Below are positions 1,766 through 14,597 of a stretch of DNA of 64,000 bases, in pieces (positions within the stretch are counted from its first letter, which is position 1; each line of letters starts with the position of its first letter). Below the pieces are notes generated by a model. It was not told the DNA's origin. It did not search any database and was given only the letters and a program-made list of their open reading frames with translations. The DNA lies in IMG/VR virus record IMGVR_UViG_3300042445_001170, positions 32,001 to 96,000 of that record; one strand, 5' to 3'. Origin of the DNA: a virus. Position numbers and translations under genes: made by a program.

Positions 1766-1950
1766 CCTAACTCCTTCTCAATAGCCTGAATAACTTCTTT
1801 AACAGGAACACAGCAATGACCTTTTTTGTCTAAAAAATTACACAATTCCACTACTGCACGAAGGGCTCGCATAGATTGTGGGTCACCGTTGTAATAAGCA
1901 ACATCTAATCTGCGGTTAATTTCAATTAGCAATTCATCGTATGTCATCAT
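1762..1950 (-). CDS. hypothetical protein (start moved to ATG 1950)
   Basis: ATGA coupling with upstream gene. Confidence 0.65.
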   Translation of the reverse strand: MMTYDELLIEINRRLDVAYYNGDPQSMRALRAVVELCNFLDKKGHCCVPVKEVIQAIEKELG

Positions 1951-2162
1951 TGCTCCATCATAGCATTTATACCCTTGATTACACAAGTGTCTATGCCATC
2001 TCCATATCTATGGGTAAACTTTTTACCTACCCTCCATAGCTGATCGTCTTCTATGATTAAATAGTCATTGATTGAATCAGGATCTGTATCTCCTGCAACC
2101 CGCCCAATGTGGTATGTCTTAATTAGCCTATCGTTAACGTATATTGGAATGTGTATTGGCAT
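1947..2162 (-). CDS. hypothetical protein (start moved to ATG 2162, after tRNA-Gln)
   Basis: Longer ORF-track start lies inside tRNA-Gln. Confidence 0.65.
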   Translation of the reverse strand: MPIHIPIYVNDRLIKTYHIGRVAGDTDPDSINDYLIIEDDQLWRVGKKFTHRYGDGIDTCVIKGINAMMEQ

Positions 2163-2163
2163 G

Positions 2164-2234
2164 CTCTCCCCCAAGGATTCGAACCTCAATAGCCAGGACC
2201 AAAACCTGGAGTCCTACCGTTAGACGAGAGGAGA
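2164..2234 (-). tRNA. tRNA-Gln(UUG)
   Basis: Cloverleaf, CCAGG-TTTTGGT-CCTGG, GGTTCGAATCC, U1-A72. Confidence 0.92.
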
Positions 2235-2239
2235 CTATG

Positions 2240-2322
2240 CGGAAACAATAGGATTCGAACCTATGGATCTTTCAATCTACGATTTAGCAAACCGTTGCAT
2301 TCGACCACTCTGCCATATTTCC
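2240..2322 (-). tRNA. tRNA-Ser(GCU)
   Basis: Cloverleaf with long variable arm, loop TTGCTAA. Confidence 0.92.
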
Positions 2323-2483
2323 TTGTGTCGGGTCAGTTTATAGATTCCACACTGTAAGGCCTTTAACCGAGTCCCCCGACGAGACCGTACAGTAGACTCC
2401 TAGTTGCCCCTGTAGTTTGCGTAAACAGAAAGCTAACTTTTCGTAGCTACCGAAAGTTCCTACTGCCATACAAACGTTTCCCG
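2323..2483 (-). ncRNA. putative structured ncRNA C between tRNA-Trp and tRNA-Ser
   Basis: No ORF; multistem junction (GCAGUAGG/UCUACUGU) plus long 3' hairpin. Confidence 0.55.
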
Positions 2484-2554
2484 CACCGTCTCTAGGAGTC
2501 GAACCTAGGCTTGCCGCTTTGGAGACGGCAGTGCTACCATAACACTTAGACGAT
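2484..2554 (-). tRNA. tRNA-Trp(CCA)
   Basis: GCCGT-CTCCAAA-GCGGC, GGTTCGACTCC. Confidence 0.92.
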
Positions 2555-2685
2555 ATGTGATCAATAGGTCTACGAGCAGACTAACCTAATGATCGTGATA
2601 TATGAGGATTTACTATCGCTCGTTGTCCTCCAGTTGTCCCCGTCGGGAGTCAGTCTCAATTACCTGAAACTCAACTTTAATATCG
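2555..2685 (-). ncRNA. putative structured ncRNA B with 6-bp kissing loop, between tRNA-Leu and tRNA-Trp
   Basis: No ORF; nested stems; loop ACGAGC complementary to loop GCUCGU. Confidence 0.62.
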
Positions 2686-2759
2686 TACATCAGGTAGGAG
2701 TTGAACCTACAACAATTAGTTCCTAAGACTAACGCCTCTACCAGTTGGGCTACTGACGC
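2686..2759 (-). tRNA. tRNA-Leu(UAG), short variable loop
   Basis: TTAGT-CTTAGGA-ACTAA; 74 nt. Confidence 0.88.
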
Positions 2760-2929
2760 AAATGCTAGCCACGACTTGGGTTCTTAACCTAAACCATCTG
2801 CTAGCTGTTATACCTAGTTACGACCACAGAGCCTATCCATCAGCCTGAACGCCTTCATAAGATGCAGGTAACAGTGCTAAGTTCGGTATAACTATCTCCG
2901 TACAGGTTGTTCAGACCTTATACTTTGAG
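2760..2929 (-). ncRNA. putative pseudoknotted ncRNA A between tRNA-Met and tRNA-Leu
   Basis: No ORF; 9-bp GGUCUGAAC/GUUCAGGCU enclosing loops complementary to downstream GGUAUAACAG; 3' hairpin. Confidence 0.6.
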
Positions 2930-3004
2930 TGGCGGATATGGGATTTGAACCCATGACCTAAAGCTTATGAGGCTTTCGAGCTAACCGAACTGCTCTAATC
3001 CGCT
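2930..3004 (-). tRNA. tRNA-Met(CAU), initiator-like
   Basis: A1xC72 mismatch, A11:U24, T loop TTCAAAT; anticodon stem AAAGC/GCTTT. Confidence 0.88.
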
Positions 3005-3014
3005 GTGGAGATTA

Positions 3015-3043
3015 AGTATAGTACAGAACTAAATCCCTGTCAA
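3015..3043 (-). promoter_or_regulatory. SigA-type promoter of the tRNA/ncRNA array
   Basis: TTGACA-17-TATACT. Confidence 0.8.
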
Positions 3044-3340
3044 CTATATTTGAATTGCCATTACACTCTTGGCATTAAGTAATAGATACTTAGTGTTGTC
3101 ATCATCTTCAACTTCCGTCCCAGAATGCTCTGGATAAAGGATTACATCTCCCACATTGATTCCGCCAATCGGGATCAGGTCGCCCTTGTAGTTGTATTCA
3201 CCTTCGCCCATGCTAATTACTGTAGCTTTATTTGGGCCTTGATCTGAGAACGTGGCAGATAGCACTAAGCCTGTAGCCGTTGTCTTTTCGCCTGTTTCAA
3301 TCTTCTTGATAAGCAACATTCCACCTATAGGTTTAATCAT
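3044..3340 (-). CDS. groES: co-chaperonin GroES
   Basis: IKP.G...T.TG.VL...G.V...G.G...GD.I.Y...GTEV...YLLL. Confidence 0.9.
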   Translation of the reverse strand: MIKPIGGMLLIKKIETGEKTTATGLVLSATFSDQGPNKATVISMGEGEYNYKGDLIPIGGINVGDVILYPEHSGTEVEDDDNTKYLLLNAKSVMAIQI

Positions 3341-3553
3341 TGTCTATGCCTTTTCTTATTTCCATAACGAGCCTTGACTTCTGCCTTAGCTTTATCTACA
3401 ATAGATTGCGTTAAAACATCTACATTAAATTCATCATCAAACTGCTGTTCGTTCATCTGGATCCTTTTCCCATGTAAGTTTTCCATCTTTATATACAGGC
3501 CAATATCCTAATGAACGCCAGTCCATTTTCATAATCTTTGGCTCTCTTGGCAT
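3337..3553 (-). CDS. two coupled microproteins (3437-3553, 38 aa; 3337-3456, 39 aa)
   Basis: Hand translation MPREPKIMKMDWRSLGYW... and MNEQQFDDEF...; second overlaps groES ATG. Confidence 0.55.
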
Positions 3554-10397: not shown

Positions 10398-10598
10398 TTA
10401 GTTTAGTTCTATTACTTTTACTTGGAATGAGCACGGATCTCCGCCTTCATCCCATTCTTGCATTTCTTCTTCTGTCATTGGCGGACCATCATGTGTATTA
10501 CAAAATACATCTGATATCCAGCCTCTGTCATAACCATTCTTGAGCCATATTTCAAACTCTACATGATTAATGTATCCTTCATCAGGGTCTAGATCCAT
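10398..10598 (-). CDS. hypothetical protein
   Basis: ORF track; C.THDG...GGDPC. Confidence 0.7.
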   Translation of the reverse strand: MDLDPDEGYINHVEFEIWLKNGYDRGWISDVFCNTHDGPPMTEEEMQEWDEGGDPCSFQVKVIELN

Positions 10599-14296: not shown

Positions 14297-14597
14297 GCTT
14301 TTCCTTTATTCTTTTCCATACTTCTTTTGTCTTATGTGCATTTCTAACTTTGTCATGAGACCCAGAATTTAAATAAACTCCACCCCATACTCCATAATCA
14401 CTATTTGATACCCCGCTGTCATAGCATAACTTAATGACTGGGCACGATAGGCATGCCTCGTCTATGCTTTTTGCTATATTGACATCTGCTTCATACTTAT
14501 CAAAAAAAAGATTAGTGTCCATTCCCAAGCAAAGGGCTAGCTTGTACCAATCTAAATTATCTTCATCTACATTTAAACTATTTAAAATATTTGACAT
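14286..14597 (-). CDS. whiB: WhiB-family Fe-S transcription factor (start ATG 14597)
   Basis: W...A.C......FF...C..CPV...C......GVWGG. Confidence 0.92.
   Translation of the reverse strand: MSNILNSLNVDEDNLDWYKLALCLGMDTNLFFDKYEADVNIAKSIDEACLSCPVIKLCYDSGVSNSDYGVWGGVYLNSGSHDKVRNAHKTKEVWKRIKEKHVY

What the first reader, a model, noticed from the sequence alone, without database searches (positions are those of the whole stretch)
2760..2929. Spacer RNA A: candidate double pseudoknot
Seen (minus strand): GGUCUGAAC (2917-2909) pairs GUUCAGGCU (2850-2842). Inside are two small hairpins, AGUU-AUACCG-AACU and GCA-CUGUUACC-UGC. Their loops are complementary to adjacent halves of one downstream strand, GGUAU (2814-2810) and AACAG (2809-2805); alternatively an 8-bp GUUAUACC/GGUAUAAC helix forms. 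A long 3' hairpin is closed by GCUAGC/GCUAGC. Inference: a compact tertiary fold of the kind seen in ribozymes and riboswitch aptamers.
Basis: partly seen in the sequence, partly recalled or inferred. Interest (0 to 1): 0.7.

Follow-up and report, generated by a model that had tools for sequence, protein, structure and literature searches.

The report
New kissing-loop RNA between phage tRNAs
The 170-base gap between two tRNA genes of this uncultured phage, whose host is probably an actinobacterium, is a gene for a compactly folded RNA of an uncatalogued family, found in about 60 related phage contigs; selection keeps its shape, including a loop-to-loop "kiss", but its function is unknown.

Summary
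The spacer (2760-2929, minus strand) fills the gap between tRNA-Met and tRNA-Leu in a 112-kb WhiB-encoding phage. It belongs to a conserved RNA family of 150-172 nt: at least 46 distinct sequences in IMG/VR and metagenome contigs, one copy in this genome. About 40 of 46 members fill a whole inter-tRNA gap exactly, between many different tRNA pairs.

Covariation supports these helices:
- A 5' hairpin P1 with loop CUGAACA.
- P3.
- A 3-bp stem P5 capped by GUUCAG.
- The 3' hairpin P7.

One of its pairs changes C-G to U.G to U-A, in two separate clades. The two small hairpins and the CUGUU/AACAG pairing are not conserved.

There is no Rfam match, no match in T4, two Streptomyces phages or 50,697 phage records, and no ORF.

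Best reading: a stable RNA cut from the tRNA operon transcript, analogous to T4 RNAC/RNAD. Its function is unknown, and ribozyme activity is untested. The scan has noted analogous, unrelated RNAs in other phage tRNA arrays.

The parts
2760..2929 (-). Whole RNA gene ('spacer RNA A'), 170 nt, filling the gap between tRNA-Met and tRNA-Leu(tag)
   Evidence: Covariance model R1 scores 2760-2928 at 153.5 bits, E 4e-31. It is the only copy in the 112-kb genome. No ORF longer than 28 aa.
2895..2928 (-). 5' domain: P0 (p2-3 with p34-35) enclosing hairpin P1 (p7-15 with p23-30, A11 bulged)
   Evidence: P1 is 98.9% paired with 6 of 8 pairs changed on both sides. The P0 pair is U-A in 38 sequences and A-U in 6. 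RNAalifold finds both helices on its own.
2908..2914 (-). Loop L1, CUGAACA; its first six bases kiss L5
   Evidence: Invariant apart from C to U at the sixth base, which co-varies with L5.
2885..2892 (-). P2 5' strand, GUUAUACC
   Evidence: Pairs with 2807-2814. 98.9% paired, 5 pairs changed on both sides.
2807..2814 (-). P2 3' strand, GGUAUAAC
Evidence: Same as above.
2868..2872 (-). P3 5' strand, GUUAC
   Evidence: Pairs with 2817-2821. The four modelled pairs (p58-61 with p110-113) all show changes on both sides and are 97.8% paired. The fifth pair, C62-G109, is read from the window's sequence only.
2817..2821 (-). P3 3' strand, GUAAC
2826..2865 (-). Conserved core arm. In this window: P4a (p65-67 with p102-104), P4b (CUUAU p69-73 with AUAGG p94-98), internal loop GAA / GAUGG, and P5-L5 at the tip
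   Evidence: The closing pair is G-C in 35 sequences, G.U in 8 and A-U in 2. The pair p73-p94 is U-A in the window and L118 and C-G in L036. This pairing is about 10 kcal/mol better than the three-way-junction alternative in the window clade and about equal elsewhere.
2842..2853 (-). P5 (GGC with GCU) capped by loop L5, GUUCAG (2845-2850)
   Evidence: All three P5 pairs show changes on both sides and are 100% paired. L5 pairs with L1 in 100% of sequences.
2764..2805 (-). P7, the long 3' hairpin closed by GCUAGC/GCUAGC, with a variable distal part (short and long forms in the family)
   Evidence: 100% paired, 5 of 6 closing pairs changed on both sides. Three further inner pairs co-vary.
2760..2763 (-). 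3' tail AUUU, then the first base of tRNA-Leu (inferred RNase P cut)
   Evidence: A conserved A plus 3-4 variable bases precede the next tRNA in nearly all members.
3015..3043 (-). Promoter-like site TTGACA-17-TATACT just upstream of tRNA-Met
   Evidence: 11 of 12 consensus matches, the only such site in 1900-3400. No terminator-like site within the array.
2930..3004 (-). tRNA-Met(cat), upstream flank; CCA not encoded
2686..2759 (-). tRNA-Leu(tag), downstream flank

Best explanation
The spacer is a gene for a stable, non-coding, compactly folded RNA of a family not in Rfam.

Expression (inferred): it is transcribed from the promoter in front of tRNA-Met as part of one precursor: tRNA-Met, RNA A, tRNA-Leu, RNA B, tRNA-Trp, RNA C, tRNA-Ser, tRNA-Gln. 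It is then released by the enzymes that mature the flanking tRNAs. Cleavage or trimming at the 3' end of tRNA-Met would define its 5' end. RNase P cutting at the 5' end of tRNA-Leu would define its 3' end.

Fold (shown by covariation):
- A 5' hairpin P0/P1.
- A central domain closed by P2 and P3, carrying a long irregular arm (P4a/P4b/P5).
- A 3' hairpin P7.
- Six Watson-Crick pairs between the P1 loop CUGAAC and the P5 loop GUUCAG tie the 5' hairpin to the tip of the central arm.

The terminal hairpins would protect both ends from exonucleases (inferred).

Function (inferred): the many invariant unpaired bases around the core (GAA/GAUGG, CUAGG, ACAG, RAGAU) most likely form a binding surface for a host or phage factor, or an RNA-only active site, used during infection. 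What it does is not known. It works like the T4 tRNA-cluster RNAs RNAC and RNAD but is not their homologue.
For: Family:
- Pattern scans and model R1 give 45 aligned members at 118-185 bits, plus L183/L186.
- The window scores 153.5 bits and the genome holds one copy.

Context:
- About 40 of 46 members fill a 150-172-nt gap exactly. The upstream tRNA is Met, Gly, Asn, Asp, Arg, Leu, Ile or Glu; the downstream tRNA is Leu, Trp, Thr, Asp, Met, Ile, Gly or Ser.
- Other tRNA pairs in this genome lie 0-4 nt apart.
- Promoter with 11 of 12 matches at 3043-3015 and no internal terminator.

Structure:
- 99.2% of cells paired, 27 pairs changed on both sides, covariation score 0.416 against 0.165 in shuffles (0 of 500 reach it) and at most 0.077 when partners are slid.
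- RNAalifold recovers P0, P1, P2, P3, P5 and P7 on its own.

Kiss:
- The pair at columns 21 and 84 is C-G in 40 sequences, U.G in 2 and U-A in 3.
- The U-A forms lie on both sides of the deepest split, which has 100% support, in a tree built without those two columns. That means at least 2 independent events.
- A scan that required only L1, L5 and GAUGG still returned only members with the same core.

Other:
- Non-coding: the longest ORF is 28 aa.
- G+C is 0.44 against 0.36-0.43 for the genome.
- Analogy: T4 RNAC and RNAD sit directly after tRNA-Arg and their function is unknown (PMC3014915; PMC9697503).
Against: - Transcription, processing and stability are therefore inferred.
- Single-sequence folding energy is not better than shuffles (z = -0.62).
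- Four to six members lack a tRNA on one or both sides (L048, L070, L056, L050), so excision by tRNA enzymes cannot be the only route.
- Five of the six kissing pairs never vary. The kiss could also form between two molecules rather than within one.
- The pairing of the conserved core (long irregular arm against three-way junction) is decided only by the window clade.
- Members were found by exact patterns, so sequence invariance is partly inflated.
- No partner or activity is known.
Confidence: 0.8

Rival explanations
1. The L1/L5 complementarity acts between molecules. Reciprocal kisses (L1 of one RNA with L5 of another) would build homodimers or larger RNA-only assemblies, as kissing loops do in the phage-associated ROOL and GOLLD RNAs.
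For: Covariation cannot tell contacts within a molecule from contacts between identical molecules. ROOL and GOLLD are encoded in phages and prophages 'often near tRNA islands' and use kissing loops as bridges between chains (PMC12286853).
Against: The RNA is 4-5 times smaller than ROOL or GOLLD and shows no similarity to them in Rfam searches. P1 is tethered only about 7 nt from P2, so the central arm could plausibly fold back to make the contact within one molecule. There are no data on oligomeric state.
Confidence: 0.2
2. It is a new self-cleaving (or otherwise catalytic) RNA that helps to cut the tRNA precursor or itself.
For: Its size, the pseudoknot-type contact and about 46 invariant positions, many of them unpaired, are typical of small ribozymes. 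It sits at sites where RNA must be cut.
Against: No hammerhead, twister, twister-sister, pistol, hatchet, HDV-like or other Rfam ribozyme model matches at E <= 10. The flanking tRNAs already supply RNase P and 3'-end processing sites. No cleavage data exist.
Confidence: 0.1
3. It is only a cis-acting spacer: a folding insulator or nuclease entry site that improves maturation of the neighbouring tRNAs and has no role once released.
For: It is nearly always inside tRNA operons, and the P7 hairpin ends 4-5 nt before the next tRNA.
Against: There is one copy in this genome, whereas the other tRNA pairs are 0-4 nt apart without such an element. The flanking tRNAs differ from phage to phage while the element is kept. 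Some members have no flanking tRNA. An insulator would not need 46 invariant bases and a co-varying tertiary kiss.
Confidence: 0.08
4. It is a decayed or stretched tRNA (pseudogene or tRNA mimic), or a chance fold in junk spacer.
For: It lies in a tRNA array. L1 is a 7-nt loop with U at its second position, like an anticodon loop (GAA). P7 followed by a conserved A resembles an acceptor minihelix.
Against: No tRNA-clan match at E <= 10 and none by ARAGORN. The 5' and 3' ends do not pair with each other. The base at the position corresponding to tRNA position 37 is a pyrimidine. A true tRNA-Phe(gaa) co-occurs in four arrays. The strong covariation excludes junk.
Confidence: 0.02

Closest known systems
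Phage T4 RNAC and RNAD (species 1 and 2 RNAs; rnaC 139 nt, rnaD 119 nt; NC_000866 70908-71171)
   Same: These are small stable RNAs encoded inside a phage tRNA cluster, directly abutting a tRNA gene, co-transcribed with the tRNAs, and of similar size. Their function is still unknown (PMC3014915, PMC9697503).
   Different: There is no detectable homology: model R1 finds nothing in the whole T4 record at E <= 1. The phage lineage and host phylum differ. The fold found here (L1/L5 kiss, P2-closed core) was not compared with that of the T4 RNAs.
ROOL and GOLLD RNAs (Rfam families; phage and prophage RNAs 'often near tRNA islands')
   Same: They are phage-encoded, lie next to tRNA genes, are elaborately folded with conserved kissing loops, and have no known function (PMC12286853).
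   Different: They are 500-800+ nt against 150-172 nt here. No Rfam match even at E <= 10. Multimer formation is not shown here.
Six-base-pair loop-loop kissing complexes such as HIV TAR-TAR* and ColE1 RNA I/RNA II (from general knowledge, not tested here)
   Same: Two 6-7-nt hairpin loops pair through all six bases, which shows such a contact is sterically possible.
   Different: Those complexes form between separate molecules or were engineered. Here the two loops lie in one 170-nt RNA, and whether the contact is within or between molecules is open.
Other structured RNAs in phage tRNA arrays noted by this scan (e1-5401735, e1-5826326, e1-5696935)
   Same: The setting is the same (the whole gap between tRNA genes), the size is similar, several have loop-loop pairs, and none is in Rfam.
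   Different: They come from other phage lineages. A look-up by sequence found no look-alike outside this genome, so they are analogues, not relatives.

Membership tests
New family defined here (model R1) | Full-length match to the covariance model with P1, P2, P3, P5 and P7 | tested here: met
   Window 2760-2928 (minus strand): 153.5 bits, model positions 1-168. The window was in the seed alignment, so it matches partly by construction. Independent members found afterwards score 132-171 bits.
New family defined here (model R1) | L1 CUGAAY complementary to L5 RUUCAG | tested here: met
   The window has CUGAAC and GUUCAG. All 45 aligned sequences keep six pairs, with C-G, U.G and U-A at one position.
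New family defined here (model R1) | Fills the gap between two tRNA genes | tested here: met
   Window: between tRNA-Met and tRNA-Leu. About 40 of 46 members do the same. It is typical but not universal.
tRNA (Rfam RF00005, clan CL00001) | Cloverleaf match to the model; ARAGORN call | tested here: not met
   No tRNA-clan hit inside the spacer at E <= 10 and none by ARAGORN.
Any Rfam 15 family, including the self-cleaving ribozymes, riboswitches, YrlA, ROOL and GOLLD | Covariance-model match | tested here: not met
   Nothing in the spacer at E <= 10, either for the window or for the consensus-like member L060.
T4 RNAC/RNAD | Sequence and structure homology | tested here: not met
   R1 finds no match in NC_000866 at E <= 1. 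The reverse test, a model of RNAC/RNAD against the window, was not done.
T4 RNAC/RNAD | Stable RNA species processed from the tRNA cluster transcript | not testable with these tools
Riboswitch | Aptamer in an mRNA leader followed by an expression platform and a regulated ORF | tested here: not met
   A tRNA gene follows 4 nt after P7. No terminator-like site and no ORF.
Self-cleaving ribozyme (any class) | Site-specific self-scission | not testable with these tools
   This needs an in vitro transcription and cleavage assay.

The most novel reading that the evidence does not exclude
The RNA is a new functional class. One reading is a new small ribozyme. The other is an RNA-only assembly in which reciprocal L1/L5 kisses join copies. 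In either case these phages would release it from tRNA operons to act on host tRNA-directed processes, for example as a decoy for tRNA-targeting defence nucleases or a modulator of tRNA processing.
Probability: 0.15. Interest if true: 0.8.

Novelty: new member of a known kind. Interest (0 to 1): 0.55.

Why it matters
Phage tRNA clusters have been known for fifty years to carry extra stable RNAs (T4 RNAC and RNAD) whose function is still unknown. The large ROOL and GOLLD RNAs also sit near phage tRNA islands.

This family adds a small and well-defined example. It has a secondary structure supported by covariation, a tertiary contact supported by two independent compensatory changes, and natural single and double variants that amount to ready-made controls for experiments. 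It occurs in a lineage of roughly 95-120-kb phages from environmental samples that appear to infect actinobacteria. Two further conserved RNAs (B and C) sit in the same operon.

If a function can be found for one such RNA, it may explain why phages so often place structured RNAs among their tRNAs.

Tried and rejected
- Single-sequence folding gave no signal (z = -0.62).
- Megablast and blastn of the region against 50,697 phage records matched only the tRNAs. The consensus-like member L060 gave no match at all.
- Rfam at the gathering threshold and at E <= 10 found only tRNAs plus noise outside the element.
- Scan of genome contigs (185,579 species): all 33 pattern hits lack flanking tRNAs and fail the model, best E = 0.37. 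No copy was therefore found in a cellular genome, but this was only an exact-pattern test.
- Pattern TCTGAACAA...TACCTGCATC gave mostly chance hits; only L036 was new.
- The 16-mer GATGGAGATTGCTCTG gave 23 extra loci, all chance.
- Paralogy with spacers B and C: R1 finds one copy only in the window.
- The closest cultured relatives by DnaE (58% identity), Streptomyces phages BillNye and WhereRU, have no copy.
- 'Anticodon-loop mimic replacing tRNA-Phe' (L1 holds GAA, L5 holds UUC): dropped, because tRNA-Phe(gaa) co-occurs in four arrays and the base corresponding to tRNA position 37 is a pyrimidine.
- Ro (TROVE), CCA-adding enzyme and RtcB as possible phage-encoded partners: none in the genome.
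- The three-way-junction version of the core (CAUC/GAUG plus GAG/CUC) is about as good as the long-arm version in most members, but it is broken and about 10 kcal/mol worse in the window clade. It is kept only as an alternative.
- A search of papers for the conserved core strings found no paper. The catalogue of 10,006 viral candidate RNAs (PMC10690425) could not be checked because its supplement is not held.

Full report
WHAT IS THERE

The stretch 2760-2929 (minus strand) is exactly the gap between tRNA-Met(cat), 2930-3004, and tRNA-Leu(tag), 2686-2759. The window is part of a complete 112,167-bp IMG/VR virus record.

The phage encodes a WhiB protein, and its DnaE polymerase is 58% identical to those of Streptomyces phages of the Stanwilliamsviridae. 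An actinobacterial host is therefore likely, but this is inferred.

A near-consensus promoter (TTGACA-17-TATACT, 11 of 12 matches) lies at 3043-3015, just upstream of tRNA-Met. No terminator-like site follows within the array. The spacer has no ORF above 28 aa. Elsewhere in the genome, neighbouring tRNA genes are 0-4 nt apart.

CHECK OF THE OBSERVATION

Taken alone, the sequence folds no better than shuffled versions (z = -0.62). The case therefore rests on homologues.

HOMOLOGUES

The neighbouring GroES-like gene (3044-3340) led to related contigs. One of them (L005) carries a diverged copy of the spacer between tRNA-Gly and tRNA-Leu.

Pattern scans built from the conserved blocks then gave many more copies in IMG/VR and in metagenome contigs. 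A covariance model (R1) confirmed 45 aligned members at 118-185 bits, plus L183/L186. It rejected every pattern hit in bacterial and archaeal genomes and the chance hits of the looser patterns.

In about 40 of 46 members the element fills a 150-172-nt inter-tRNA gap from end to end. The loop GUUCAG lies 73-78 nt after the upstream tRNA. The flanking tRNAs differ widely, so the element behaves as a unit of its own inside tRNA arrays.

A few members lack a tRNA on one or both sides (L048, L070, L056, L050). The genome holds one copy. The contigs that carry the element, where long, are 95-120 kb, which points to a single phage lineage.

STRUCTURE

Positions are given as p = 2930 - window coordinate.

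| Element | Position (p) | Note |
|---|---|---|
| P0 | 2-3 with 34-35 | |
| P1 | 7-15 with 23-30 | loop L1 CUGAACA (16-22) |
| P2 | 38-45 with 116-123 | |
| P3 | 58-62 with 109-113 | |
| P4a | 65-67 with 102-104 | core arm |
| P4b | 69-73 with 94-98 | core arm |
| Internal loop | | GAA / GAUGG |
| P5 | 77-79 with 86-88 | loop L5 GUUCAG (80-85) |
| P7 | 125-130 with 161-166 | inner stem follows |
| Tail | 167-170 | AUUU |

On the 45-sequence alignment, 99.2% of cells are paired and 27 pairs show changes on both sides. The covariation score is 0.416, against 0.165 in column shuffles (0 of 500 reach it) and at most 0.077 when partners are slid by 1-3 columns. That alignment was fitted to the model, which favours the structure. 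The plain MAFFT alignment gives the same picture: 96.6% paired, 22 pairs, 0.356 against 0.153. RNAalifold also finds P0, P1, P2, P3, P5 and P7 unaided.

- The hairpins AGUU/AACU and GCA/UGC are paired in only 55% and 61% of cells.
- The three outer pairs of the 9-bp long-range helix form in only 42-61% of sequences. Those bases belong to P1 and P5.
- CUGU/ACAG never shows a compensated change. In the L005 clade the G changes and the compensation is found in the P3 partner instead.
- The 3' hairpin is confirmed.

THE KISS

CUGAAC in L1 and GUUCAG in L5 are perfectly complementary. My first scans required GUUCAG, so its invariance in that set proved nothing.

A scan that left L5 free brought in L150, L151, L152 and L153. 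In these, L5 is AUUCAG and L1 is CUGAAUA. Two further members (L123, L127) have the intermediate U.G. The pair is thus C-G in 40 sequences, U.G in 2 and U-A in 3 distinct sequences.

In a tree built without those two columns, the U-A forms lie on both sides of the deepest, fully supported split. That means at least two independent compensatory events. The other five pairs never vary. Covariation cannot say whether the contact forms within one molecule or between two.

THE CORE

Two pairings fit most members about equally well: a three-way junction, or one long irregular arm.

The window, L118 and L036 carry a variant core (CUUAU...AUAGG, and CUUAC...GUAGG in L036). It forms five contiguous pairs only in the long-arm model, and it includes a U-A to C-G exchange between the window and L036. 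In these three sequences the long-arm model is better by about 10-13 kcal/mol. I therefore prefer the long arm, on thin evidence.

WHAT IT IS NOT

- No Rfam family matches at E <= 10, either for the window or for a consensus-like member.
- It is not a tRNA.
- R1 finds nothing in T4 or in two related Streptomyces phages.
- blastn finds nothing in 50,697 phage records.
- No paper holds the core strings.
- The genome encodes no Ro, CCA-adding enzyme or RtcB.
- The idea that L1 mimics a tRNA-Phe anticodon loop was dropped.

HOW IT PROBABLY WORKS

Shown here:
- A conserved family.
- A fold supported by covariation, with a loop-loop contact.
- An exact fit between tRNA genes.
- One promoter in front of the array.

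Inferred:
- Co-transcription with the tRNAs.
- Release by the enzymes that mature the flanking tRNAs: RNase P at the 3' side, and 3'-end processing of the CCA-less tRNA-Met at the 5' side.
- Protection of both ends by P0/P1 and P7.
- A role in trans through the invariant unpaired core.

The closest analogues are T4 RNAC and RNAD, which directly follow tRNA-Arg and still have no known role (PMC3014915; PMC9697503). ROOL and GOLLD are more distant analogues: they are phage RNAs 'often near tRNA islands' that use kissing loops (PMC12286853). This scan has also noted unrelated structured RNAs in other phage tRNA arrays. None is a sequence relative of this one.

VERDICT

This is a real RNA gene of a new, well-supported family. 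Ribozyme or aptamer activity is untested. Expression data could not be obtained.

Noticed in passing
window 2555-2684 (-) and 2323-2482 (-): The two other long spacers of the same operon (RNA B and RNA C) also have homologues at 78-99% (B) and 73-100% (C) identity, in about 10 and about 8 of the loci that carry RNA A. They are not paralogues of A. A is the most widespread of the three.
   Followed up: partly
L048 about 10490-10527 (-) and L067, downstream of its tRNA-Gln: A 38-nt block (GUGCAAA.CUCUCCGACCU.GGUCACGUCGUUAAAAAC) is shared by these two loci at 36 of 38 positions. In L048 it lies in non-coding sequence just upstream of a copy of RNA A that has no flanking tRNA. It may be part of yet another conserved RNA.
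   Followed up: no
L036 5878-6045: This member looks mosaic. Its P0/P1 are of the L055/L141 type, but its P3 and core are of the window type, and the tree places it away from the window. This suggests recombination within the RNA gene.
   Followed up: no
L050 1778-1936; L070 1761-1970: Here RNA A is separated from the nearest tRNA by a further 159 nt (L050) or about 210 nt (L070) of unassigned sequence. These stretches may hold other RNA modules.
   Followed up: no
window 14376-14549 (-): A WhiB-family gene (42 bits, above the Pfam cut-off) supports an actinobacterial host for this 38% G+C phage.
   Followed up: partly
window 3044-3340 (-): A 98-aa GroES-like co-chaperonin gene (phrog_3188, E 3e-16) lies directly upstream of the tRNA/RNA operon. 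Its promoter-proximal position is kept in L002 and L005, but not in most relatives.
   Followed up: partly
window 2930 and 2686: Neither tRNA-Met nor tRNA-Leu encodes CCA: the discriminator is followed by CUC and by CGA respectively. Their 3' ends must therefore be cut or trimmed and then extended by host enzymes. The phage has no CCA-adding enzyme.
   Followed up: partly
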